Positions 11,154 to 51,425 of a stretch of DNA of 51,502 nucleotides are shown here, piece after piece; within the stretch, counting starts at the first letter, position 1; each line of letters opens with the position of its first letter. This stretch comes from Escherichia coli. GTDB lineage: Bacteria > Pseudomonadota > Gammaproteobacteria > Enterobacterales > Enterobacteriaceae. Location of the stretch: NCBI RefSeq assembly GCF_003334255.1, contig NZ_QOWU01000037.1. One strand, written 5' to 3'. The position numbers and the translations under genes are program-made. A model generated the notes under the pieces. It was not told where the DNA came from, did not search any database, and worked only from the letters and a program-made list of their open reading frames with translations.

Positions 11154-11506
11154 TGGTAATCCCCTTCTTCACCGTGGAACTCAAGATCAACCGTGCCTTC
11201 TTCGGCATTATGGTTCGCTTCGCCGTGCAGCCAGGCAGACGACAGTACATAGACCTGACCGTTCGCCAGCTCGGCAGTGATGGTCATCTCATCAGACGAG
11301 GTGATTTTGCTCACCGGAAAATTCTTCGGCACCTTGAAGGTCCCTTTGACATAGGGCGCACGGTGAGTTTCCTTGCGGTCCACTGAACCGTCCAGGCCGA
11401 TGATGTCATCATTGACCGTCCTGTTCATGGGCACCTCAATGCCGCCGGTCAGCGATAGCTGCTGACCGTCAATTTTGAAATAACAGGTTCCCCCGATACG
11501 GGCCAT
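11150..11506 (-). CDS. Tail tube protein (Mu gpM-like)
   Basis: 118 aa, directly downstream of the sheath gene and coupled to it. Confidence 0.75.
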   Translation of the reverse strand: MARIGGTCYFKIDGQQLSLTGGIEVPMNRTVNDDIIGLDGSVDRKETHRAPYVKGTFKVPKNFPVSKITSSDEMTITAELANGQVYVLSSAWLHGEANHNAEEGTVDLEFHGEEGDYQ

Positions 11507-13002
11507 TATGCAGACTCCTCTGAATACTGAAGACGGAACTGGTTAACCACGGCAAAGACACGCAACTGGTTAACATAGTCAGGCGGGAACAGCGTGTTCA
11601 GGCGGTTCGGATCGCTGGCATCACGCTCCACAACCAGGTACTGCTTAAACAGTTCGTAGTTTTCCACGATCCCCGCACGCTCAAGCTGACGGTAGGTTGC
11701 CAGCAGTTCCCCTTTGATCACCGCCGGTGTGACAATCGCCTGACCGGGACCAAAGCGGGTACCGTCGCTGGCAAGCTTGTGACGCCCGTACTTACTGGTA
11801 ATGACGGATTTCAGTTTGCGCAGCACATACGCGCTGGTATGCAGCGTCTCGCTGTCGAGGTAGCTGTTATCCGCAACACCGTAAGCGTTTTTCCTGTACG
11901 TGGTGACATCACGCTGAATGCGCAGCACCCCGCTTTCGACATACGCCGTTGCCACGCCATGAGACAGCAGGGTCTGTTGTTCGGTCATCGTGAACCGTTT
12001 CCCCTTCGGCGCAGGCAGCATACCCACCAGCTCACCGGTCTGCGTGGGACGTGCCGGATCGTTGCGGATAAACACCGCTGCGCGGGCGGTACGGCTTGCC
12101 GCCAGCTCGTCGGCAGGCGTCTGGGTCTCTTTTTCGTATCCCGCCAGGGTAATGTGCTGCTGGTTAAACTGGTCACCTGCGGTCACCAGTTCTGACAGCG
12201 TGCCGATCTTTGCCGTATACACATGACCATACAGCTGACGCGCATAGCTCCAGCGACCGCTGGTATCGTTCATCTCGGTCACCAGCGTGTTAACGGAGGC
12301 TGTGTCGTTGAACGGCAGGCCGATATAATCAAACGGCTCATCCGCCATTGCAGCCACCGCGCCGGTGAGAACAGGAGCGCCCGTTCCGGCGGTACCCGTC
12401 GCCACGGCAATCTGTACGCCCGCTGGCAGCACTTCGCCCCCACCAAAGCCGTAGTAATTGAGGCTGACAGGAATTTCATTCCCGCAAAGCCCCTTATGAC
12501 GCGCGGTCAGTGTGACCACGCCTGCCGAAGATGAGGCAGTAAACGGCAGGGTCGGAACGGCATTGATGGCATCCTGGATACTGCTGGCAATCGTCGCAAC
12601 GTTATCGCCGTTGGTCACCGGTGCCTGCACGCGGGTACGTCCCACATAAACATTCACCGTGCCGGTTTCGGTTGCCGCGCCGGTCACCGTCAGCGTAACC
12701 GTTGCCGCCGCGCCCGTGGCTTCCGGAACGGCAATCACATACAGCTCGCCAAACGGGTCGGTCTGGCGATAAGCCTCGACCATACGCGCCAGCTGACTTC
12801 CCGCACCACAAATCTGGCGTGCATAGTCTGCCGACGGCATCAGCACCAGACTGTTGGCAACAATCTCTGCACCGTTATTGGCGTGACCAATCAGCAACGA
12901 TGCCCCGCTGTCCTGTGCAGTATTCGCCGCCTGGTTATCCATTTCCGCATAAAACAGCGGAACCAGCGTATTCGACGGAATGGTGTTAAAGCTTATCGTC
13001 AT
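11506..13002 (-). CDS. Contractile tail sheath protein (Mu gpL-like)
   Basis: 498 aa beginning MTISFNTIPSNTLVPLFYAEMDN. The sheath-tube-chaperone-tape measure gene order is conserved. Confidence 0.85.
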   Translation of the reverse strand: MTISFNTIPSNTLVPLFYAEMDNQAANTAQDSGASLLIGHANNGAEIVANSLVLMPSADYARQICGAGSQLARMVEAYRQTDPFGELYVIAVPEATGAAATVTLTVTGAATETGTVNVYVGRTRVQAPVTNGDNVATIASSIQDAINAVPTLPFTASSSAGVVTLTARHKGLCGNEIPVSLNYYGFGGGEVLPAGVQIAVATGTAGTGAPVLTGAVAAMADEPFDYIGLPFNDTASVNTLVTEMNDTSGRWSYARQLYGHVYTAKIGTLSELVTAGDQFNQQHITLAGYEKETQTPADELAASRTARAAVFIRNDPARPTQTGELVGMLPAPKGKRFTMTEQQTLLSHGVATAYVESGVLRIQRDVTTYRKNAYGVADNSYLDSETLHTSAYVLRKLKSVITSKYGRHKLASDGTRFGPGQAIVTPAVIKGELLATYRQLERAGIVENYELFKQYLVVERDASDPNRLNTLFPPDYVNQLRVFAVVNQFRLQYSEESA

Positions 13003-25049: not shown

Positions 25050-25433
25050 TTAATTAGAGTTATTAACAACGATATCCATCTCTAACCGGATATCTAATGC
25101 CATTAACATCCCTTCAATTATGCCCTCAGCCTTCTGTAACCTTTTCCCGATATAACCATCAGAGCAGCAATGCTTACCTGCCAGTGACATGAATGTCATA
25201 CCGACTACATAATAATCTACTAATAAATCGTGCAAATCGCTGTTGTTCTTTTTCAGACGGGCCATGCACCCGCAAATGATCATCGCGTCATCGTCACAAC
25301 ATTGCGGGCGAGATTTTACTTTTGAAGTAATTAATCCCTTAAAACCGGCGGCAATGGACGACCAGGTCACATCTTCATGATTATTAGCCGCCCACGCTCC
25401 CCAACGCTCAAGAACCATCTGAATATCACGCAT
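25050..25433 (-). CDS. Late antiterminator Q (DLP12 QuuD-type)
   Basis: [24 protein letters not shown]... is a 127-aa form. The Met at 25433 is preferred as the start. Confidence 0.85.
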
Positions 25434-25518
25434 CAACTTACTCCACAAAAATCAGACCAGAACGCCAATTACAAGCAAAAATCAACAAAACAGTATTAGT
25501 TGATTGTTATCTCTGACT

Positions 25519-27110: not shown

Positions 27111-27620
27111 CTATGTTTCATCGGCGAGGTCATCATCTGTGACAATCATGAGGTTAAAGAATGAAATAATGTTTAACCACTGCGAGTAAATATCGCTCGT
27201 CATGCTGGTTAGCTCCTCTCCGTGAAAGAAGGCATCAGGCCCAACCTCATAGTTGAGCTCTTCAAAAAGCTCCATGTTTAATTGGCTAATAAAGAATTGC
27301 TTCAGACCTTTCATTGCATCCTGATTGTTGGTATCTGAGTAATTTATTATGCTCCCCATTGCCATGTTCAAACATCGAACAATATTGGCTGCGTCATGAA
27401 AGCTCCAGTCAGCCCCTTTCTTTCCTTTTGAGTATGAATTCGCTCTCTCAGCGCAAGCTTTTAATGTCTCGTACAAATACTGCTTTCCTTGCAACTGCAA
27501 AGCTTTTTCGGATGTGGCCCTGCTAGCTTCTGAGGATCGCCATGCTAAATAAGTTGCTACCGCAGATGCGATAGCTGCAATCGCAGAAACTGCATCTATA
27601 CCGTTATCCCAACCAGACAT
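27111..27620 (-). CDS. AT-rich moron: N-terminally membrane-anchored protein of unknown function
   Basis: 169 aa. One TM helix (GIDAVSAIAAIASAVATYLAW) is followed by a helical soluble domain. Base composition is clearly AT-richer than the flanking nin genes. Confidence 0.6.
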   Translation of the reverse strand: MSGWDNGIDAVSAIAAIASAVATYLAWRSSEASRATSEKALQLQGKQYLYETLKACAERANSYSKGKKGADWSFHDAANIVRCLNMAMGSIINYSDTNNQDAMKGLKQFFISQLNMELFEELNYEVGPDAFFHGEELTSMTSDIYSQWLNIISFFNLMIVTDDDLADET

Positions 27621-27646
27621 AAAAACCCCCTCGATTATTTGAGGGG
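27621..27646 (-). terminator. nin-region intrinsic terminator abutting the moron start codon
   Basis: On the minus strand: cccctc-aaataatc-gagggg then TTTTT, followed directly by the ATG at 27620. The descending stem arm doubles as the only Shine-Dalgarno-like sequence. Confidence 0.5.
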
Positions 27647-27669
27647 ATTATACCTTCAAAGTTTCCGCG

Positions 27670-29847: not shown

Positions 29848-30545
29848 ACACTTGCTCCTTTCAGCCCAAACTTAGCTTTGATTTCTGCGATCTTCGCCAG
29901 AGCCTGTGCACGATTTAGAGGTCTACCGCCCATAACAGGAAGTTGTTTTACTGGTTCAGGTATCGTCTCACCACGGTTAATTCGCGCTGTCATACAGGTC
30001 AGTTCATCGGCAGCCTTGCGCCGTAATTCCGCGTCAGTCAGCGCATTGGCCCGCATGTTCTGGTACAAGTTGGTAACCAACCAGTAATGCGCGTTCGATT
30101 TCCACGGATAAGACTCTGCATCCGGATACAGGCCACGCTTCCGGCAATACTCGTAAACCATATCAACCAGCTCGCTGACGTTTGGCAGCCCGGCGTTAAC
30201 AGATGCTTCTTCCCGGCACCAGGCGACAAACTGCCCGGGTGATGGCAGGAATGGTCGATTCTGCCGACGGGCTACGCGCATTCCAGCGTTAACCTGTTCC
30301 ATTGTGGTGATCCCGTTTTCCCGGAAAGCCAGAACCCACTGGCGACGGATTTCGTTCAGTTCATTCTGGTCACGGTTAGCCAGGCTCGCCGGGAAAGTTG
30401 CCAGTAACTGGCTGAACACACCGTTGATGATCTGCGCTACCTGCTGTACCTGTGGCTTTTCGTCGTACTGTTCCGGCATGTTGTTGGCGATCCGGCGCAT
30501 CTGCTCACAGTCAAAGTTAACCATCTGTGCGGCGATGTTTTTCAT
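29844..30545 (-). CDS. P: Replication protein P (DnaB loader), lambda type
   Basis: 233 aa, near-identical to lambda P as recalled (MKNIAAQMVNFD.EQMRRIANNMPEQYDEKPQVQQ...). Confidence 0.95.
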   Translation of the reverse strand: MKNIAAQMVNFDCEQMRRIANNMPEQYDEKPQVQQVAQIINGVFSQLLATFPASLANRDQNELNEIRRQWVLAFRENGITTMEQVNAGMRVARRQNRPFLPSPGQFVAWCREEASVNAGLPNVSELVDMVYEYCRKRGLYPDAESYPWKSNAHYWLVTNLYQNMRANALTDAELRRKAADELTCMTARINRGETIPEPVKQLPVMGGRPLNRAQALAKIAEIKAKFGLKGASV

Positions 30546-31471
30546 AGCTCCACCCCGTAAATCCAGTCAGTGTTCGTCAGGTCGAGTTTTGGTTTGCCGG
30601 CTGTCACGCCAGCCTGTTGCTTGTTTCGGTTGATTTCGAGCTGGGTCCACTTGTCGCGGAGTTTGGCCGGACTTAGCACGTTACCGGACCAGAAGTTGTC
30701 CTGGCATGCCCAGCGGAACAGCACGCACATGTCGCGGTGGTTACGTCCGTCACGTTCACGCATCAGGCGGATATCGTTAGCCCACCCAGCAAAATTCGGT
30801 TTTCTGGCTGATGGCGCGATGGTCTTCACCATGTCAAACATCCACTCTGCGGCGGTCAGGTCTTCTGCTGTCCCCCACTTGCTGCCGCTCTGAATTGCAG
30901 CATCTGGTTTCACCACAGGAAGATCGTTTTCTGGTTGGTCAGAGGATTCGCCAGAATTCTCGGACGAAAAAGGTTTTATATTGTCTTTTGTTAGTTTGTC
31001 TTTTGTGTTTACCTGATTCGGGTAAACGCCTTTACCTGATTTGGGTAAACTTTTTTTACCTGATTCAGGTAAATTTACCTCTTTCAGGTAAACTTTATTT
31101 TTCTTACCTGATTCGGGTAATGTTGACCATTCACTGACCACATTATTAATGCCGGTATTCCGCCCGCTCTGAATAAAAATCCCACGCTTTACCAGAACAC
31201 TTTTTGCAGCAGAACACTTGTGCGGCAATATCCCGGTTAATTCGGAAAGTTGCTCGTTGCTAACCCAATCCAGTTTTTTATTAAAGCCATATGTTTTGCG
31301 CATGACAGCCAGAAAGACCAGAAGCTGGTGCTGTGTTAATCCGGCCAGCATCACAGCTTCCAGCAACTCATTTGCAATGCGCGTATAACCATCATCGAGA
31401 TCTGCCACGCGCGGCTCCTTTTGTGCCGCATCCGGCACTGGAAAATTGAATATCTCAGCAGTGTTTGCCAT
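30542..31471 (-). CDS. O: Replication initiator O (novel N-terminal DNA-binding half, lambda-like C-terminal P-interaction half)
   Basis: The start MANTAEIFNF.. aligns with the lambda O start MTNTAKILNF and has a GGAGGA Shine-Dalgarno. The C-terminal SENSGESSDQPENDL..NTDWIYGVEL is lambda-like. Confidence 0.9.
   Translation of the reverse strand: MANTAEIFNFPVPDAAQKEPRVADLDDGYTRIANELLEAVMLAGLTQHQLLVFLAVMRKTYGFNKKLDWVSNEQLSELTGILPHKCSAAKSVLVKRGIFIQSGRNTGINNVVSEWSTLPESGKKNKVYLKEVNLPESGKKSLPKSGKGVYPNQVNTKDKLTKDNIKPFSSENSGESSDQPENDLPVVKPDAAIQSGSKWGTAEDLTAAEWMFDMVKTIAPSARKPNFAGWANDIRLMRERDGRNHRDMCVLFRWACQDNFWSGNVLSPAKLRDKWTQLEINRNKQQAGVTAGKPKLDLTNTDWIYGVEL
31008..31121. repeat. Origin iterons (five copies of TTACC-N8-GGTAA) inside the O gene
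   Basis: Copies start at 31008, 31031, 31055, 31074 and 31103 (tttacctgattcgggtaaac and variants). An AT-rich tract at 30968-31007 lies on the O-downstream side, as in ori-lambda. Confidence 0.8.
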
Positions 31472-31557
31472 AATTCCTCCCGCAATGAGTGTGTTACGAT
31501 TTGCACCTGAAAGTCGGTTCTGTTCCAGCAGACCGGCTTTCGCCATTTCTGAACCTG

Positions 31558-32097
31558 TCATATCGCCCCCAGCATGGTAGTAACCATCGCCATCAATGGA
31601 CCAGCCAGATCTGGGTCCACACGAAACATCGACACAATACCTTCACTAATTTCCTTCAGTTTCTGGTGGCGTGGTGCGTTGAGAATGACAGCCTGTTTTG
31701 CCTCACTGAGTTCCTTTTCCATTTCAGCCAACCTAGCCATGAAGCTATCCTGCTCAACCAGGTAACCGCGATATTCCAGCGGTAGTACCGCCAGAATTGC
31801 CGGGGTCAGTTCACGCACGTTATTTCGGTATTTTTCAGAATCGAATTTGTTATCGAGGAAGCGGAACAGCTTCTGGCGTGCACGGCTGACATCATCAGGG
31901 AAATCGATGGTGCCGCCGCCCTGCTCCCGATACTCATTCACAATGAGTGTGGCAACGACATCCTGATTATCTACAGCCGACCAGGCGCGGACGGCATCAC
32001 GGATTTTTTCGTGGCCTGGCACCTGTTTTGTTTGAGAACGATTTATCACCGCAGTCGGGCTAAATCCGCTAGTCTGTTGGTATGTAAGTGGTTGCAT
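31558..32097 (-). CDS. YdaT-like protein (CII-position regulator of Rac-type immunity regions)
   Basis: EYREQGGGTIDFP and LTPAILAVLPLEYR resemble Rac YdaT motifs. It lies directly after the cro-like gene. Confidence 0.65.
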   Translation of the reverse strand: MQPLTYQQTSGFSPTAVINRSQTKQVPGHEKIRDAVRAWSAVDNQDVVATLIVNEYREQGGGTIDFPDDVSRARQKLFRFLDNKFDSEKYRNNVRELTPAILAVLPLEYRGYLVEQDSFMARLAEMEKELSEAKQAVILNAPRHQKLKEISEGIVSMFRVDPDLAGPLMAMVTTMLGAI

Positions 32098-32141
32098 AAT
32101 TGACTCCTTTAGTTTGAATTGACTGTTAAGTTGATTGCTTA

Positions 32142-32154
32142 TTGTTAAAGAGCG
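32142..32154 (-). promoter_or_regulatory. Consensus boxA element just downstream of cro (nutR position)
   Basis: The minus strand reads CGCTCTTTAACAA. GCTCTTTAACAA equals the rrn boxA consensus. It starts 13 nt after the cro-like stop codon. Confidence 0.6.
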
Positions 32155-32166
32155 TGAAATGGAAAT

Positions 32167-32397
32167 TTAAGCTGCGTTCTTTTCGGTGTGTGGAAACAAC
32201 TTCGGAAGATCCGGGCGAATCTGGTATGCCTTCACTACTCCACCAGTAGCCGTAACAATGCTGCCGACATGTTCAGGGGATACCTTTGCTTTGTTGTGAA
32301 GCCACTTATAGACGGCCTGCTGTGAAACTTCGCAAGCAGCGCCCAGTTTCTTTTGTGAACCAACGATATTGATCGCTGTTTTGATAGCTGGGTTCAT
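32167..32397 (-). CDS. Cro/YdaS-like HTH repressor
   Basis: 76 aa. HTH (KKLGAACEVSQQAVYKWLH), a GGAGG Shine-Dalgarno, and divergent orientation from the S24 repressor. Confidence 0.75.
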   Translation of the reverse strand: MNPAIKTAINIVGSQKKLGAACEVSQQAVYKWLHNKAKVSPEHVGSIVTATGGVVKAYQIRPDLPKLFPHTEKNAA

Positions 32398-32424
32398 AAC
32401 AACCTCCGTGGTTAATTTGAATCA

Positions 32425-32453
32425 AGATTAAAACTATGGTTGTTTTTAGTCAA
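32425..32453 (-). promoter_or_regulatory. Putative pR (TTGACT-17-TAATCT) with a 17-bp operator in the spacer
   Basis: -35 at 32448-32453 and -10 at 32425-32430 on the minus strand. The palindromic operator aaaactatggttgtttt at 32430-32446 fills the spacer. Confidence 0.5.
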
Positions 32454-32466
32454 CAACCATTTTCGT

Positions 32467-32495
32467 TTGATGGAATAAAACCTTGGTTGTACATT
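32467..32495 (+). promoter_or_regulatory. Putative pRM (TTGATG-17-TACATT), giving a leaderless repressor mRNA
   Basis: The -10 ends 6 nt before the ATG at 32502. No Shine-Dalgarno is present. An operator-like aaaaccttggttgtaca (32477-32493) overlaps the promoter. Confidence 0.4.
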
Positions 32496-32501
32496 TGGAC
32501 T

Positions 32502-33191
32502 ATGAAAACAACACTCTCAGAAAGACTTAAAGAAGCCAGATTAGCGCGAGGCCTTACACAAAAGGCGCTTGGGGATTTGGTCGGGGTTAGCCAGGCTGCT
32601 ATTCAGAAAATCGAAACAGGGAAAGCTAATCAAACAACTAAAATCGTGGAGATCGCGAACGCTTTGGGTGTGCGCGCAGAATGGTTATCTTCTGGCGTTG
32701 GAAATATGTCAGACAGTACAGTGCAACCAATACAATCAACTGTCAGCCATTCCAAATACTTCAAGATTGACGTTCTTGATATAGAAGTCAGTGCTGGGCC
32801 GGGAGTCATCAACCGTGAGTTTGTAGAAGTTCTACGCTCGGTTGAGTACTCGTTTGACGATGCTCGTCACATGTTCGATGGTAGGAAGGCGGAAAATATC
32901 CGCATCATTAACGTGCGTGGTGACAGCATGTCAGGAACGATCGAACCAGGTGATCTGCTGTTCGTTGATATCACAGTTAAATCTTTCGACGGTGATGGTA
33001 TCTATGCGTTTCTGTACGACGACACAGCCCATGTAAAGCGCCTGCAAATGATGAAGGATAAGCTGCTGGTCATCTCTGATAACAAAAGCTACTCACCGTG
33101 GGACCCGATCGAGAAAGACGAGATGAACCGGGTGTTCATCTTCGGTAAGGTTATTGGGAGCATGCCGCAGACATATAGGAAGCATGGGTAG
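32502..33191 (+). CDS. CI-type prophage repressor (HTH plus S24 LexA-like autocleavage domain)
   Basis: MKTTLSERLKEARLARGLTQKALGDLVGVSQAAIQKIETGK... followed by GDSM..(Ser) and ..VKRL (Lys) peptidase S24 motifs. Confidence 0.85.
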   Translation: MKTTLSERLKEARLARGLTQKALGDLVGVSQAAIQKIETGKANQTTKIVEIANALGVRAEWLSSGVGNMSDSTVQPIQSTVSHSKYFKIDVLDIEVSAGPGVINREFVEVLRSVEYSFDDARHMFDGRKAENIRIINVRGDSMSGTIEPGDLLFVDITVKSFDGDGIYAFLYDDTAHVKRLQMMKDKLLVISDNKSYSPWDPIEKDEMNRVFIFGKVIGSMPQTYRKHG

Positions 33192-33312
33192 TACCAATTA
33201 AAAATTATCAACTGGGCATTGTGCTCATTCAGTAAAGAACTAATTCCTATCTTTGCTCTAGGTAGTAATATTAAGCCACCGCAATAATATCTTTACCTAA
33301 CGGCGTAAGAAT

Positions 33313-33339
33313 CCCGGTCACCGTGCCGGGTTTTCTTTT
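33313..33339 (+). terminator. Rho-independent terminator after the repressor gene
   Basis: cccgg-tcaccgtg-ccggg followed by ttttcttttg. Confidence 0.6.
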
Positions 33340-33464
33340 GCCCTCCCCTCATCACACACACCGTTAAAAAAACCACCATAACCTCGCTTCAGTTATCGCT
33401 ATGCGATTCAAGTCACAAAATAAATCCATCCTAAATACAACCAGTTATATCTAAAACAACCAAT

Positions 33465-33509
33465 AAAACAACTTTTGTTGTTGACGATAAAACAACTATA
33501 GTTTTAAAT
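33465..33509 (+). promoter_or_regulatory. Putative pL (TTGACG-17-TTAAAT) with two 17-bp operators
   Basis: aaaacaactatagtttt (33489-33505) lies in the spacer and aaaacaacttttgttgt (33465-33481) abuts the -35, 24 bp centre to centre. They share AAAAC-N7-GTTTT with the pR operator. Confidence 0.5.
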
Positions 33510-33786
33510 AAGTTCATCGCAACAACACAACGATACGGCAACTACCTGATTCACCGTTGCGATGACCGCTTAGATCCGCAGTTTGAATTTCAGCAGGCTT
33601 CGGGGAGTGCGAGGGGTGAAACGGACGCGTGAACGTCGGTGTGACCAGCTGAAATTAACTCAACATTTCATACCTTAGTCGCTTCAACGAGGCGGCTTAG
33701 TTATGACAACCGGCGGCCATCCACCGCCTGAATACGCGCAGAAGTCTCTATATGTTCAGCAGCCCAGCTTACGGGCAGGAGTTTTT

Positions 33787-33993
33787 ATGGTTCATCAACA
33801 TTATGGAACGCAGACCGTTAATCGAGGTGCGGTCATGCCAGGAATGCTGGTCAAACACAAAGATGGTACCTGGACTGCATCAGCTAATTTACGCGGACGG
33901 CTTTATCTGCATCGCGGCATCGAGTGCACTTATACCCGTGATTTGCTCGTGGAAGTTTTTCTCGACGGACGCGGTAACGGCCTGAATCACTAA
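33787..33993 (+). CDS. Hypothetical first protein of the pL operon (68 aa from MVHQ)
   Basis: AGGAG lies 5 nt upstream of the ATG at 33787. It is not Arg-rich and shows no resemblance to N, Kil or CIII. Confidence 0.4.
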
Positions 33994-34068
33994 TCCCCTT
34001 TCCTGTTTTCCTAATCAGCCTGGCATTTCGCGGGCGATATTTTCACAGCCATTTTCAGGAGGTCAGCC

Positions 34069-34365
34069 ATGAACGCTTATTACATTCAGGATCGTCTTGA
34101 GGCTCAGAGCTGGGCGCGTCACTACCAGCAGATCGCCCGTGAAGAGAAAGAGGCAGAACTGGCAGACGACATGGAAAAAGGCCTGCCCCAGCACCTGTTT
34201 GAATCGCTATGCATCGATCATTTGCAACGCCACGGGGCCAGCAAAAAAGCCATTATCCGTGCGTTTGATGACGATGTTGAGTTTCAGGAGCGCATGGCAG
34301 AACACATCCAGTACATGGTTGAAACCATTGCTCACCACCAGGTTGATATTGATTCAGAGGTATAA
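34069..34365 (+). CDS. gam: Gam (RecBCD inhibitor), lambda type
   Basis: [44 protein letters not shown]... is near-identical to lambda Gam as recalled. Confidence 0.95.
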
Positions 34366-34370
34366 AACGG

Positions 34371-35156
34371 ATGAGTACAGCACTCGCAACGCTGGCAGGG
34401 AAGCTGGCTGAACGTGTCGGCATGGATTCTGTCGACCCACAGGAACTGATCACCACTCTTCGCCAGACGGCATTTAAAGGTGATGCCAGCGATGCGCAGT
34501 TCATCGCATTGTTGATCGTCGCCAACCAGTACGGCCTTAATCCGTGGACGAAAGAAATTTACGCCTTCCCTGATAAGCAGAACGGCATCGTTCCGGTGGT
34601 GGGCGTTGATGGCTGGTCCCGCATCATCAATGAAAACCAGCAGTTTGATGGCATGGACTTTGAGCAGGACAATGAATCCTGTACATGCCGGATTTACCGC
34701 AAGGACCGTAATCATCCGATCTGCGTTACCGAATGGATGGATGAATGCCGCCGCGAACCATTCAAAACTCGCGAAGGCAGAGAAATCACGGGGCCGTGGC
34801 AGTCGCATCCCAAACGGATGTTACGGCATAAAGCCATGATTCAGTGTGCCCGTCTGGCCTTCGGATTTGCTGGTATCTATGACAAGGATGAAGCCGAGCG
34901 CATTGTCGAAAATACTGCATACACTGCAGAACGTCAGCCAGAACGCGACATCACTCCGGTTAACGATGAAACCATGCAGGAGATTAACACTCTGCTGATC
35001 GCCCTGGATAAAACATGGGATGACGACTTATTGCCGCTCTGTTCCCAGATATTTCGCCGCGACATTCGCGCATCGTCAGAACTGACACAGGCCGAAGCAG
35101 TGAAAGCTCTTGGATTCCTGAAACAGAAAGCCACTGAGCAGAAGGTGGCAGCATGA
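34371..35156 (+). CDS. bet: Bet (single-strand annealing recombinase), lambda type
   Basis: [44 protein letters not shown]... is near-identical to lambda Bet as recalled. Confidence 0.95.
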
Positions 35157-35833
35157 CACCGGACATTATCCTGCAGCGTACCGGGATCGACGTGAGAGCT
35201 GTCGAACAGGGGGATGATGCGTGGCACAAATTACGGCTCGGCGTCATCACCGCTTCAGAAGTTCACAATGTGATAGCAAAACCCCGCTCCGGAAAGAAAT
35301 GGCCTGACATGAAAATGTCCTACTTCCACACCCTGCTTGCCGAGGTTTGCACCGGTGTGGCTCCGGAAGTTAACGCTAAGGCGCTGGCCTGGGGAAAACA
35401 GTACGAGAACGACGCCAGAGTCCTGTTTGAGTTTACTTCCGGCGTGAATGTTACTGAATCACCGATCATCTATCGCGACGAAAGTATGCGCACCGCCTGC
35501 TCTCCCGATGGTTTATGCAGTGACGGCAATGGCCTTGAGCTGAAATGCCCGTTTACCTCCCGGGATTTCATGAAGTTCCGGCTCGGTGGTTTCGAGGCCA
35601 TAAAGTCAGCTTACATGGCCCAGGTGCAGTACAGCATGTGGGTGACTCGAAAAGATGCCTGGTACTTTGCCAACTATGACCCGCGCATGAAGCGTGAAGG
35701 CCTGCATTATGTCGTGATTGAGCGGAATGAAAAGTACATGGCGAGTTTTGACGAGATGGTGCCGGAGTTCATCGAAAAAATGGACGAGGCACTGGCTGAA
35801 ATTGGTTTTGTATTTGGGGAGCAATGGCGATGA
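35153..35833 (+). CDS. exo: Exo (5'-3' dsDNA exonuclease), lambda type
   Basis: [52 protein letters not shown]... is near-identical to lambda Exo as recalled. Confidence 0.95.
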
Positions 35834-36012
35834 CGCATCCTCACGATAATATCCGCGTAGGCACGATCACTTTCGTCTACTCCGTTACGAAGCGAGGCTG
35901 GGTATTTCCCGGCCTTTCTGTTATCCGAAATCCCCTGAAAGCACAGCGGCTGGCTGAGGAGATAAATAATAAACGGGGAGCTGTATGCACAAAGCATCTC
36001 CCGTTGAGTTAA
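35824..36012 (+). CDS. Lambda orf61-like small early protein
   Basis: [51 protein letters not shown], in the same position after exo as in lambda. Confidence 0.7.
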
Positions 36013-36176
36013 GAACGAGTATCGAGATGGCACATAGCCTCGCTCAAATTGGAGTCAGGTTTGTGCCAATACCAGTAGAAACAGACGAAGAATTTCATAC
36101 GTTAGCCGCATCCCTTTCACAAAAGCTGGAAATGATGGTGGCGAAAGCAGAAGCAGATGAGAGAGACCAGGTATGA
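35985..36176 (+). CDS. Lambda orf63-like small early protein
   Basis: [34 protein letters not shown]..., syntenic with lambda orf63. Confidence 0.7.
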   Translation: MHKASPVELRTSIEMAHSLAQIGVRFVPIPVETDEEFHTLAASLSQKLEMMVAKAEADERDQV

Positions 36177-36256
36177 CAACCACTGAATGCATTTTTCTGG
36201 CAGCGGGCTTCATATTCTGTGTGCTTATGCTTGCCGACATGGGGCTTGTTCAATGA
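36173..36256 (+). CDS. 27-aa hydrophobic peptide ORF; not in the ORF track
   Basis: MTTTECIFLAAGFIFCVLMLADMGLVQ. Both ends are coupled by ATGA overlaps to the neighbouring ORFs. Confidence 0.3.
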   Translation: MTTTECIFLAAGFIFCVLMLADMGLVQ

Positions 36257-36468
36257 CACCTCAGCAAGAAAACGCCCTTCGCAGCATTGCCCGTCAGGCT
36301 AATTCTGAAATCAAAAAAGCCAGACAGCAGTTTCCGGATAAAAACGTCGATGACATTTGCCGTAGCGTACTAAAGAAGCACCGCGAAACGGTAACGCTGA
36401 TGGGATTCACACCGACTCATTTAAGCCTGGCGATCGGCATGTTGAACGGCGTCTTTAAGGAACGGTGA
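36253..36468 (+). CDS. Hypothetical early protein (71 aa from MTPQQ)
   Basis: The ORF is coupled to the preceding small ORF and is followed by a terminator. Confidence 0.5.
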   Translation: MTPQQENALRSIARQANSEIKKARQQFPDKNVDDICRSVLKKHRETVTLMGFTPTHLSLAIGMLNGVFKER

Positions 36469-36490
36469 ACATGAAAAGCAAAATCATCAG

Positions 36491-36511
36491 GGAGCTACAG
36501 GCTCCTTTTTT
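36491..36511 (+). terminator. Rho-independent terminator inside the pL operon (tL-like)
   Basis: ggagc-tacag-gctcc followed by TTTTTT. Confidence 0.6.
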
Positions 36512-36566
36512 ATTGTTCGCATTCACCCTCAAGCGTATTAACCAACAATTCAGGGATTAATGGAAG

Positions 36567-36785
36567 ATGGCAGACATCATTGATTCAGCATCAGAAATTG
36601 AAGAATTACAGCGCAACACAGCAATAAAAATGCACCGCCTGAACCACCAGGCTATATCTGCCACTCATTGTTGTGAGTGTGGCGATCCGATAGATGAACT
36701 AAGACGTCTGGCCGTTCAGGGTTGTCGGACTTGTGCAAGTTGCCAGGAGGAGATCGAACTTAAGAACAAACAATGGGGATTGTGA
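36567..36785 (+). CDS. TraR/DksA-family C4 zinc-finger protein
   Basis: CCECGDPID...CRTCASCQ, a four-Cys motif in a 72-aa protein. Confidence 0.75.
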   Translation: MADIIDSASEIEELQRNTAIKMHRLNHQAISATHCCECGDPIDELRRLAVQGCRTCASCQEEIELKNKQWGL

Positions 36786-38488: not shown

Positions 38489-38564
38489 TGGTGCCGATAA
38501 TAGGAGTCGAACCTACGACCTTCGCATTACGAATGCGCTGCTCTACCAACTGAGCTATATCGGC
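38489..38564 (-). tRNA. thrW: tRNA-Thr (anticodon CGT)
   Basis: The reverse complement, GCCGATATAGCTCAGTTGGTAGAGCAGCGCATTCGTAATGCGAAGGTCGTAGGTTCGACTCCTATTATCGGCACCA, folds as a cloverleaf with a TTCGTAA anticodon loop and a CCA end. Confidence 0.95.
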
Positions 38565-50684: not shown

Positions 50685-51011
50685 ATGACTAAAAATACTC
50701 GTTTTTCCCCCGAAGTCCGTCAGCGGGCGATTCGTATGGTTCTGGAAAGTCAGGATGAATATGACTCACAGTGGGCGGCAATTTGTTCCATTGCCCCAAA
50801 GATTGGCTGTACGCCGGAGACTCTGCGTGTCTGGGTTCGCCAGCATGAGCGGGATACCGGGGGCGGTGATGGAGGGCTCACCACCGCTGAACGTCAGCGT
50901 CTGAAAGAGCTGGAACGTGAAAATCGTGAACTGCGCCGCAGTAACGATATCCTTCGCCAGGCTTCCGCTTATTTTGCGAAGGCGGAGTTCGACCGCCTCT
51001 GGAAAAAATGA
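50685..51011 (+). CDS. IS629 OrfA (HTH transposase subunit)
   Basis: [105 protein letters not shown]. Confidence 0.9.
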
Positions 51012-51425
51012 TGCCACTGCTGGATAAGCTGCGTGAGCAGTACGGGGTCGGACCGGTATGCAGCGAACTGCATATTGCCCCGTCAACGTATTACCATTGT
51101 CAGCAACAGCGACATCATCCGGATAAACGCAGTGCCCGTGCGCAGCACGATGACTGGCTGAAGAGAGAGATACAGCGCGTATACGATGAAAATCATCAGG
51201 TGTACGGTGTGCGTAAAGTCTGGCGTCAGTTGTTACGGGAAGGAATCAGGGTGGCCAGATGTACAGTGGCGCGCCTCATGGCGGTTATGGGACTTGCCGG
51301 TGTTCTCCGGGGTAAAAAGGTCCGCACTACCGTCAGCCGGAAAACCGTTGCCACAGGTGACCGCGTAAACCGTCAGTTCGTGGCAGAACGTCCTGACCAG
51401 CTGTGGGTGGCTGATTTTACTTACG
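51008..51425 (+). pseudogene. IS629 OrfB (DDE transposase), truncated before the catalytic core
   Basis: [46 protein letters not shown]... The native continuation VSTWQGF is replaced by unrelated sequence from 51426. Confidence 0.8.

What the first reader, a model, noticed from the sequence alone, without database searches (positions are those of the whole stretch)
32098..32166. Consensus boxA after cro, but no boxB hairpin and no recognisable N gene
Thirteen nt after the cro-like stop the pR transcript reads CGCUCUUUAACAA. This contains the full rrn-type boxA consensus GCUCUUUAACAA, a stronger match than lambda's own CGCUCUUA. The remaining 55 nt up to the next gene are AT-rich with no stem-loop that could act as boxB. 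No Arg-rich N-like ORF is found downstream of pL. Both early operons nevertheless contain intrinsic terminators (27621-27646 and 36491-36511) that must be read through. This points to a non-canonical early antitermination mechanism: rrn-like boxA/Nus-only, RNA-based, or an unrecognised protein.
Basis: partly seen in the sequence, partly recalled or inferred. Interest (0 to 1): 0.55.

Follow-up and report, generated by a model that had tools for sequence, protein, structure and literature searches.

The report
Orphan boxA in N-less lambda-like prophage
A perfect copy of the short RNA signal (boxA) that phage lambda uses to recruit host Nus proteins sits just after the cro gene of a very common E. 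coli prophage that has lost lambda's N protein and the matching boxB hairpin, so it is most likely a leftover that may still bind Nus proteins but cannot explain how the phage passes its terminators.

Summary
On the minus strand (the pR transcript), CGCUCUUUAACAA lies at 32154..32142, 12 nt after the cro stop. It is the only exact GCTCTTTAACAA in the window. The 69-nt cro–cII spacer does not fold. No N gene lies between pL and kil or elsewhere in the early operons.

The boxA is inherited with the cro (YdaS-family) module. In phages with homologous cro genes the same slot holds one of three things:
- boxA plus boxB with an N gene (PA28);
- a put RNA (UPF_BP1, as in HK022);
- nothing (4A7, HK639).

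A minority 81-nt variant keeps a weak boxB-like hairpin. The window's version lost it through a 12-nt deletion. Sibling phages with the same pL leader, kil and cII-like, O and P genes lack boxA altogether. boxA is therefore not the family's answer to antitermination. HK022/HK639-type put RNA is absent, with positive controls detected.

The element matches the functional NusB/S10 consensus GYTCTTTAANA. It may still nucleate an N-independent Nus complex, which acts against Rho or represses translation, but such complexes do not override intrinsic terminators. How this family (about 40% of complete E. coli genomes) reads through lambda-derived terminators remains open.

The parts
32142..32154 (-). 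boxA, CGCUCUUUAACAA on the pR transcript. It is a perfect match to the rrn-type 12-mer and to the functional consensus GYTCTTTAANA.
   Evidence: consensus from PMC5725501.
32098..32166 (-). 69-nt cro-cII(YdaT) spacer. It is unstructured, 22% C and 9% G, and more conserved than flanking synonymous sites.
   Evidence: no fold; composition; pi 0.0035 against 0.019 and 0.042 at third codon positions.
32123..32129 (-). UUAACAG, the junction of a 12-nt deletion. The 81-nt variant reads UUAACAGACUGAUUAACAG here and forms the hairpin GACUG-AUUAA-CAGUC 18 nt after boxA. This is the remnant of the boxB position.
   Evidence: comparison with the PA28 boxB (loop CUAACA).
32104..32109 (-). AAGGAG, the ribosome-binding site of the cII-like gene.
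   Evidence: sequence reading.
32167..32397 (-). cro (YdaS family), first gene of the pR operon.
   Evidence: PHROG 35; Pfam YdaS_toxin, 4e-17.
31558..32097 (-). cII-like activator of the YdaT family.
   Evidence: PHROG 163, 4e-67; Pfam YdaT_toxin, 8e-30.
32426..32453 (-). Inferred pR. TTGACT lies at 32453..32448, followed by an operator palindrome AAAACAACCAUAGUUUU and an AT-rich -10 region. The layout matches pL.
   Evidence: I1, I3: operator repeats shared with pL. Inferred, not tested.
32436..33191 (+). cI-type repressor (S24 peptidase family).
33481..33509 (+). Inferred pL: TTGACG, 17 nt, TTAAAT. Transcription would start near 33516.
   Evidence: Homology among heteroimmune phages begins exactly here.
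33516..33786 (+). Conserved pL leader that occupies the place of nutL and N. It has no boxA, no put and no Rfam match.
   Evidence: (2222 of 5426 E. coli genomes).
33583..33678 (+). 31-codon TTG ORF with an arginine-rich stretch (KRTRERR). Its stop codon is CAG in 48 of 74 haplotypes, which fuses it in frame to kil. It is probably not a gene.
33787..33993 (+). kil (KilR-type cell-division inhibitor), the first recognisable gene after pL.
33987..36762 (+). Block 97.4% identical to lambda 30418-33193. It carries gam, bet, exo, orf60a, orf63, orf61 and lambda's own hairpins.
36489..36507 (+). Intrinsic-terminator-like hairpin with a U6 tail in the pL operon, upstream of xis and int. It is lambda sequence.
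27624..27649 (-). Intrinsic-terminator-like hairpin with a U5 tail in the pR operon, between a 73-codon ORF and a PHROG 1779 ORF, upstream of Q.
25050..25448 (-). Q-like late antiterminator, the only antiterminator protein recognised.
   Evidence: PHROG 79, 4e-53.

Best explanation
The element is a genuine nutR-type boxA that has been orphaned.

It belongs to the cro (YdaS-family) immunity module and sits in the slot just after cro, where lambdoid phages keep their rightward antitermination signal. In this prophage family the N gene and nutL have been replaced by a short N-less leader-kil module. The boxB partner has decayed. It survives as a marginal 5-bp hairpin in a minority 81-nt variant and was removed from the window's version by a 12-nt deletion between TTAACAG repeats.

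The RNA should still bind NusB-S10, because it fits the functional consensus exactly. At most it loads the N-independent Nus complex (NusA, NusB, NusE, NusG, SuhB) onto polymerase leaving cro. That complex is known to counteract Rho or to lower translation of the next gene. It is not known to override intrinsic terminators.

boxA is therefore not the device that carries early transcription past the terminators, and sibling phages do without it.

Shown here: the sequence, its position, its homology to a real nutR, the absence of boxB, N and put, and its absence in siblings.

Inferred: NusB/S10 binding, and the lack of a required role.
For: Origin of boxA:
- cro of Stx phage PA28 is 67% identical in protein.
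- The 3' end of PA28 cro and the following sequence align with the window up to CCGCUCUUUAACA.
- In PA28 a phi21-type boxB hairpin follows, and an N gene and a nutL are present.

The slot after cro is modular:
- UPF_BP1 (cro 68% identical) has a put RNA there (82.7 bits).
- HK639 (62%) and 4A7 (48%) have 29-30 nt with nothing.

The family lacks N:
- pL is followed by a leader and then kil.
- 78 of 80 loci with this cro carry the same N-less leader.
- No N-like family appears among 26 early ORFs.

boxB has decayed. The 81-nt variant has the hairpin GACUG-AUUAA-CAGUC. The 69-nt form equals that variant minus 12 nt between TTAACAG repeats and predominates. In one search, 1468 of 1515 genomes match the 69-nt query at 95% or more, and 47 fall in the 80-90% band that the two fetched examples (H168, H169) show to be the 81-nt form.

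boxA is dispensable and not specially conserved:
- Phages 4A7, 1W, 3W, Perceval and PhiR30_1 share the leader and kil. For 4A7 the cII-like, O and P genes were also seen to be shared. None of them returns a match to the boxA spacer.
- boxA is no better conserved than the rest of the spacer: 2 of 12 sites segregate in boxA against 6 of 57 elsewhere.
- One natural variant breaks the consensus (GCUCUUUGACAA).

The sequence is competent for Nus binding. It matches GYTCTTTAANA, the consensus derived from functional boxA elements (PMC5725501).
Against: - The 12/12 match has survived although the boxB side has diverged completely from the PA28 type. That would be expected if boxA alone were still under selection.
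- The only recurrent boxA variant (GUUCUUUAACAA) is the suhB boxA sequence and still fits the consensus.
- The whole spacer is 5-12 times less diverse than neighbouring third codon positions, so something in it is constrained.
- Dispensability in siblings does not prove lack of function in this immunity type.
- All copies are very similar, so conservation tests have little power.
- No experiment was possible.
Confidence: 0.5

Rival explanations
1. The boxA is a working, N-independent antiterminator of the rrn/CRISPR kind. NusB-S10 bind it, the Nus complex stays with polymerase, and it protects the long pR transcript (cII-like, O, P, nin genes, Q) from Rho.
For: - Exact match to the rrn 12-mer and to GYTCTTTAANA.
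- Correct strand, about 290 nt downstream of pR.
- The literature shows boxA alone can protect untranslated CRISPR arrays from Rho (PMC7665894).
- The spacer is constrained.
- The recurrent variant is another functional boxA form.
Against: - Genes of the pR operon are tightly packed or overlapping, so they are probably translationally coupled.
- No 78-nt window with C-G of at least 0.17 and G of at most 0.13 exists in the operon.
- Siblings with the same downstream cII-like, O and P genes lack boxA.
- The pL operon has none.
Confidence: 0.22
2. The boxA is a suhB-like repressor element. The Nus complex bound at boxA loops the RNA and lowers translation of the cII-like gene 44 nt downstream. 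This tunes the lysis-lysogeny decision and, through Rho polarity, O and P expression.
For: In suhB, boxA represses translation even when moved up to 100 nt from the ribosome-binding site. A ParE-like toxin gene of Citrobacter is controlled in the same way (PMC5725501). Here boxA ends 32 nt before the AAGGAG of the cII-like gene.
Against: - There is no direct evidence.
- Siblings regulate the same cII-like gene without boxA.
- The 12-nt indel changes the spacing freely.
Confidence: 0.1
3. The sequence matters at the DNA level. The spacer holds the cII/YdaT-dependent establishment promoter (pRE analogue) and its binding sites on the opposite strand, and the boxA match is a by-product.
For: - In lambda and in CP-933P the establishment promoter and the activator sites lie between cro/ydaS and cII/ydaT (PMC8630535, PMC9986795).
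- The plus strand here has CATAAT over the start codon of the cII-like gene, and TTGACT-N6-TTGATT repeats.
- The whole spacer, not just boxA, is conserved.
Against: - A 12/12 match to boxA at the exact nutR position, homologous to the PA28 boxA, is not explained by a promoter.
- The promoter scan finds nothing above threshold on the plus strand.
- This YdaT is too distant from the solved one to transfer its operator.
- The two roles are not exclusive.
Confidence: 0.08
4. A cryptic N-like system exists. The arginine-rich mini-ORF in the pL leader (alone or fused to Kil) is a minimal N that acts with boxA and the weak hairpin.
For: - It is the most Arg-dense ORF of the prophage and lies exactly at the N position.
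- KRTRERR resembles the lambda N motif TRRRERR (lambda N translated).
- Frequent polymorphisms are 5 synonymous to 3 non-synonymous in this frame against 2:7 in the other frames. The start codon varies TTG/GTG.
Against: - There is no Shine-Dalgarno sequence.
- The stop/CAG polymorphism is common and is unlinked to the spacer type.
- There is no Pfam N_peptide or PHROG hit.
- The leaders of other genera do not keep the frame and change mostly non-synonymously.
- The same sites are neutral G-U changes in the predicted RNA fold.
- The window's own nutR lacks any hairpin.
- Gene callers almost never call it.
Confidence: 0.05

Closest known systems
nutR of N-dependent lambdoid phages (lambda, phi21/PA28 type, P22)
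   Same: The position is the same, about a dozen nt after the cro stop on the pR transcript. The boxA core is the same: PA28 has CCGCUCUUUAACA and lambda has CGCUCUUA. The flank up to boxA is homologous with PA28.
   Different: There is no boxB hairpin, no N gene and no nutL. The spacer is 69 nt against 116-118 nt.
N-independent BoxA/Nus-factor targets: rrn leader and spacer, suhB 5' UTR, Salmonella CRISPR leaders
   Same: It is an exact match to the rrn 12-mer and to GYTCTTTAANA. It stands alone without a phage protein. The natural variant GUUCUUUAACAA equals the suhB boxA.
   Different: It lies between two translated genes of a phage operon, not ahead of a long untranslated RNA or in a 5' UTR. 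No Nus binding or effect has been measured. It is not conserved in sibling phages.
put RNAs of HK022, HK639 and UPF_BP1 (protein-free antitermination)
   Same: These are also N-less lambdoid phages. In UPF_BP1, putR occupies the same slot after a cro that is 68% identical. HK639 shares the cro family and the YdaT-type cII.
   Different: A covariance model that finds HK639 putL (46.7 bits) and both UPF_BP1 sites (about 82 bits) finds nothing in the window or in five related loci. The core motif GGUYMAGGAUGA is absent from the leader and the spacer.
CP-933P ydaS-ydaT immunity region (Cro/CII analogues with PRE between them)
   Same: The gene families (YdaS-type cro, YdaT-type cII) and their order are the same. 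The intergenic region is expected to hold the establishment promoter.
   Different: The repressor differs (S24-type cI here, PaaR2 there). The YdaT is too divergent to detect the solved structure by sequence. Neither CP-933P paper contains the words antitermination or terminator.

Membership tests
Lambda-type N/nut antitermination site | boxA (YGCUCUU(U)A) on the early transcript shortly after cro | tested here: met
   CGCUCUUUAACAA at 32154..32142, 12 nt after the cro stop. It is homologous to the PA28 nutR boxA.
Lambda-type N/nut antitermination site | boxB stem-loop a few nt downstream of boxA | tested here: not met
   The window spacer has an MFE of -3.7 kcal/mol and z -0.26, with no hairpin. 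Lambda and PA28 controls fold with boxB. The 81-nt variant has only a 5-bp hairpin (z -1.8).
Lambda-type N/nut antitermination site | Cognate N protein with an arginine-rich motif, NusA-binding and polymerase-binding regions | tested here: not met
   There is no such ORF between pL and kil. No N-like PHROG appears in 26 early ORFs. The 31-codon Arg-rich ORF gives no N_peptide hit and is too short.
Lambda-type N/nut antitermination site | Second site (nutL) downstream of pL | tested here: not met
   No boxA with up to 2 mismatches (12-mer) or up to 1 mismatch (9-mer) occurs in 33500-34100 on the plus strand.
N-independent BoxA / Nus-factor complex targets | Perfect match to the functional consensus GYTCTTTAANA on the transcribed strand | tested here: met
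   The sequence GCTCTTTAACA is present. The consensus is from PMC5725501.
N-independent BoxA / Nus-factor complex targets | Binding of NusB/NusE and recruitment of SuhB, NusA and NusG | not testable with these tools
   This needs ChIP or gel-shift experiments.
N-independent BoxA / Nus-factor complex targets | boxA-dependent, nusB-dependent change in Rho termination or in translation of the downstream gene | not testable with these tools
   This needs reporter fusions. As context, genes are tightly packed and there is no rut-like stretch downstream.
N-independent BoxA / Nus-factor complex targets | Conservation of the element across relatives that share the regulated genes | tested here: not met
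   It is absent from 4A7-type siblings that have the same cII-like, O and P genes. Within its own immunity type it is no better conserved than the rest of the spacer.
HK022/HK639-type put antiterminator RNA | Two-stem RNA of about 70 nt matching the put covariance model, downstream of pL and/or of cro | tested here: not met
   Model R1 scores 91 bits on its training sequences, 46.7 bits on HK639 putL and about 82 bits on UPF_BP1 putL and putR. Nothing above 8 bits is found in the window.
HK022/HK639-type put antiterminator RNA | Related copies in both early operons | tested here: not met
   There is no second copy of the pL leader anywhere in the window, nor in loci of other genera.

The most novel reading that the evidence does not exclude
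This abundant family of lambda-like phages has no N, no nut pair and no put RNA, yet carries lambda's own leftward terminators. It may use an early antitermination system not yet recognised. In that case the orphan boxA would be the rightward recruitment site for a Nus-based complex. The conserved structured pL leader, with its arginine-rich mini-ORF, would be the leftward or trans-acting component.
Probability: 0.1. Interest if true: 0.8.

Novelty: new member of a known kind. Interest (0 to 1): 0.38.

Why it matters
If the boxA is only a relic, the finding is a clear example of modular evolution. The slot after cro can hold a nut site, a put RNA, a bare boxA or nothing.

If the boxA still loads Nus factors, it would be the first phage example of N-independent BoxA control. 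That would add to the short list of rrn, suhB and CRISPR leaders.

The wider point is an open question that can be tested directly. The N-less leader is present in 2222 of 5426 complete E. coli genomes, and inducible phages such as PhiR34_1 and 4A7 carry it. They also carry lambda-derived terminators between pL and xis/int, and some carry an intrinsic terminator between pR and Q. How they express late and excision functions is unknown.

Tried and rejected
- **HK022-type put RNA.** I built a covariance model from HK022 putL and putR. It detects HK639 and UPF_BP1 put sites but nothing in the window. A motif scan was also negative in the relevant regions.
- **HK639 'M3-like RNA' and HK639 leader.** No similarity in the window.
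- **Rfam.** Only a tRNA and an IS3 frameshift pseudoknot pass gathering thresholds. There is nothing credible at E up to 10 in 31900-34100.
- **A second copy of the pL leader in the pR operon (putL/putR logic).** None found.
- **Covariation in the pL leader.** 49 distinct sequences show only G-U-neutral single changes and no double compensatory change, so the test is uninformative.
- **Homologues of the leader in other genera, retrieved through Kil.** Their leaders differ and align poorly. Only the first ~20 nt of the transcript are shared with HK639 and HK225.
- **The Arg-rich mini-ORF as a vestige of N.**
  - There is no DNA similarity to the PA28 nutL-N region.
  - There is no family hit.
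  - The protein search returns almost only Kil ORFs.
- **Transfer of the YdaT operator (TTGATT-N6-AATCAA) from CP-933P.** This YdaT does not detect the solved structure by sequence, so the transfer was not attempted.
- **A search for the 81-nt variant's hairpin elsewhere, as a possible nutL.** It gave single, mostly random hits.
- **King et al. 2011 (HK639 put RNAs).** The paper is not held in the library.

Full report
**Orientation.** The window holds a lambdoid prophage integrated next to a tRNA gene that I read as tRNA-Thr (CGU) from the anticodon loop.
- The rightward (pR) operon runs on the minus strand: cro 32397..32167, a 69-nt spacer, a 179-codon cII-like gene 32097..31558, O, P, ren, nin-region genes, RusA and a Q-like gene at 25448..25050.
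- The repressor (32436-33191) and the leftward (pL) operon run on the plus strand: pL near 33481-33509, a leader, kil, gam, bet, exo, small ORFs, xis and int.

**The observation.** The minus strand of the spacer reads UAA AUUUCCAUUUCA CGCUCUUUAACAA UAAGCAAUCAACUUAACAGUCAAUUCAAACUAAAGGAGUCAAUU AUG.
- GCTCTTTAACAA occurs once in the window, here and on the right strand. About 0.006 exact hits are expected in 103 kb of sequence.
- The element also fits GYTCTTTAANA, the consensus that Baniulyte et al. derived from functional boxA elements (PMC5725501).
- The spacer has no structure. The corresponding spacers of lambda and of Stx phage PA28 fold with obvious boxB hairpins.
- After the 13-mer, 44 nt remain before the next start codon, not 55.

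**No N gene.** Between the repressor and kil there is a terminator (33313-33330), operator repeats, pL and a leader of 185-270 nt. The first recognisable gene is kil (PHROG 294). PHROG scans of the nin region and of the rest of the pL operon find only a Q-like antiterminator.
- The same arrangement is seen in phage PhiR34_1, which is 100% identical over 2.6 kb.
- It is also seen in 4A7, 4C10, 1W, 3W, Perceval, Turner and others. None of the records inspected is annotated with an N gene.
- Of 80 IMG/VR loci carrying this cro, 78 carry the same leader. The other two end before it.
- The leader occurs in 2222 of 5426 complete E. coli genomes. The cro-boxA-cII module occurs in 1524.

**Where the boxA comes from.** Proteins similar to this cro occur in phages with different antitermination systems.
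- In PA28 (67% identical) the end of cro and the following bases align with the window up to CCGCUCUUUAACA. A phi21-type boxB follows. The phage has an N gene and a nutL with boxA and boxB.
- In Salmonella phage UPF_BP1 (68%) the slot holds a put RNA like that of HK022, and a second put lies downstream of pL.
- In HK639 (62%) and 4A7 (48%) the spacer is 29-30 nt and holds neither.

The place after cro is therefore a modular slot. The window's boxA is the boxA half of a nutR that came with the cro module.

**What became of boxB.** In one search, 47 of 1515 E. coli genomes match the 69-nt query at only 80-90% identity. The two examples I fetched (H168, H169) carry an 81-nt spacer, so I take this band to be the 81-nt form. 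In it, boxA is followed after 18 nt by GACUG-AUUAA-CAGUC (or AUGAA), a 5-bp hairpin that the fold predicts (z -1.8). Its loop region shares UAAC with the PA28 boxB loop CUAACA (my comparison).
- The window's 69-nt form equals the long form minus 12 nt between two TTAACAG repeats.
- The two 12-mers of the long form differ at 4 of 12 positions, so a recent duplication is unlikely and a deletion is the simpler reading.
- The deleted form predominates. Loss of the hairpin evidently cost nothing, as expected in a phage without N.

**Is boxA needed?** Heteroimmune siblings share the pL leader from exactly the transcription start onward, and the kil gene. For 4A7 the cII-like, O and P genes are also the same. 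Their cro-cII spacer is UAAUCUGCGGCGUUAACUGAUAAGGCAAUGACU, without boxA. These are deposited as isolated phages. The pL leader has no boxA.

Across 98 loci of the boxA type, diversity is as follows:

| Region | Nucleotide diversity (pi) |
|---|---|
| cro-cII spacer | 0.0035 |
| cro, third codon positions | 0.019 |
| cII-like gene, third codon positions | 0.042 |

The spacer is therefore constrained. However, boxA is not better conserved than the rest of it: 2 of 12 sites segregate in boxA against 6 of 57 elsewhere. One variant, GUUCUUUAACAA, is the suhB boxA and still fits the consensus. Another, GCUCUUUGACAA, breaks it.

By analogy with lambda and CP-933P (PMC8630535, PMC9986795), part of the constraint probably reflects the ribosome-binding site of the cII-like gene and an establishment promoter on the other strand. 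This was not tested.

**Other mechanisms tested.**
- A covariance model of HK022 putL and putR detects HK639 putL (46.7 bits) and both UPF_BP1 sites (about 82 bits). It finds nothing in the window, PhiR34_1 or the long-spacer loci.
- Rfam gives nothing relevant.
- There is no second copy of the leader in the pR operon.
- The leader's predicted three-way junction (33585-33657) is no more stable than shuffled sequence (z -0.85). The available variants carry no compensatory changes.

**The arginine-rich mini-ORF.** The most Arg-dense ORF of the prophage is a 31-codon TTG ORF in the leader, MNFSRLRGVRGVKRTRERRCDQLKLTQHFIP. Its core resembles the N motif of lambda.
- Its stop codon is CAG in 48 of 74 haplotypes, which fuses it in frame to the long kil ORF. 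Frequent polymorphisms lean synonymous in this frame.
- Against a real gene:
  - It has no ribosome-binding site.
  - The stop polymorphism is common and unlinked to the spacer type.
  - There is no family hit.
  - Leaders of other genera do not keep the frame.
  - The 'synonymous' sites are also neutral G-U changes in the fold.
- I treat it as probably fortuitous, but it deserves an experiment.

**The terminators.** Window 33987-36762 is 97.4% identical to lambda 30418-33193.
- The hairpin at 35894-35916 sits just after exo. That is where lambda tL3 lies according to my recollection of the pKD46 description (not verified here).
- The hairpin at 36489-36507 is also lambda sequence and is kept in PhiR34_1. 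In lambda these are passed by N-modified polymerase.
- The pR-side hairpin (27649..27624) lies in a cassette that PhiR34_1 lacks. In the part of the PhiR34_1 pR operon I fetched (L001, which ends before Q), the scan lists only weak terminator-like sites.

Sequence alone cannot tell whether read-through is active, leaky, or bypassed by internal promoters.

**Mechanism and verdict.** The best-supported reading is an orphaned nutR boxA. It can very probably still bind NusB-S10. It may load the N-independent Nus complex, which is known to oppose Rho (PMC7665894) or to repress translation of the next gene (PMC5725501). Antitermination of intrinsic terminators in lambda depends on N (PMC5725501). 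The element is absent from equally viable siblings and from the pL operon.

The proposal that boxA marks a new early antitermination mechanism is not supported. How this very common N-less, put-less family completes early transcription remains a real open question.

Noticed in passing
window 33516-33786 (+): A pL leader conserved from the transcription start onward across at least three immunity types. It occurs in 2222 of 5426 complete E. coli genomes and is annotated with nothing. It is G+C-rich and predicted to form a three-way junction at 33585-33657.
   Followed up: partly
window 33583-33678 (+): A 31-codon TTG ORF with KRTRERR, the most arginine-dense ORF of the prophage. It sits at the N position. 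Its stop codon is CAG in most haplotypes, which fuses it in frame to kil (136 codons).
   Followed up: partly
window 33516-33540; L180 (HK639) about 1885-1860 minus strand; L177 (HK225) 1245-1270: The first ~20 nt of the pL transcript (AUCG[A/C]AAC[G/A]A[A/C]ACA[U/A]CGAUA, a small 5'-terminal hairpin) are shared by this family, HK639 and HK225, although the rest of the leaders differ.
   Followed up: no
window 33665-33740; L177 2505-2570: A module just upstream of kil has two hairpins (AGUCGCUUCAACGAGGCGGCU and GGCGGCCAUCCACCGCC). It is shared with HK225, where it follows an intrinsic terminator. It may control kil expression.
   Followed up: no
window 33987-36762: This block is 97.4% identical to lambda 30418-33193 (gam, bet, exo, orf60a, orf63, orf61). 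The left boundary of the lambda homology falls at the end of kil.
   Followed up: yes
L183 (Salmonella phage UPF_BP1) 2738-2810 (+) and 1453-1529 (-): Two HK022-like put RNAs score about 82 bits with the put model. No put feature appears in the feature table returned for this stretch. The record also carries a short ORF noted as 'gp24 protein'.
   Followed up: partly
L177 (HK225) 1300-1325: The pL leader of HK225 contains CUGCUUUUUAACAACA. This is boxA-like but has U at the critical position 4. No N gene is annotated in HK225.
   Followed up: no
window 33331-33430 (+): About 100 nt after the repressor-operon terminator are conserved between heteroimmune phages, with no ORF of note and no known function.
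   Followed up: no
window 27111-27620 (-): The start codon of a PHROG 1779 ORF lies inside the U-tract of the 27649..27624 terminator hairpin. The gene can therefore only be expressed by read-through or from a promoter inside the upstream ORF.
   Followed up: no
window 50966-51082 (+) and 38492-38564 (-): An IS3-family frameshift pseudoknot (ALIL, 121 bits) lies outside the prophage. The tRNA gene at the int end (read as tRNA-Thr from the anticodon loop) is the likely attachment site.
   Followed up: no
window 1-21000: Judged only from ORF sizes and order, the late region looks like HK97-type head genes joined to contractile-tail genes (498-codon sheath-like ORF at 11506-13002). That would be unusual for a phage with lambda-like early genes. 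These ORFs were not searched against any family library.
   Followed up: no
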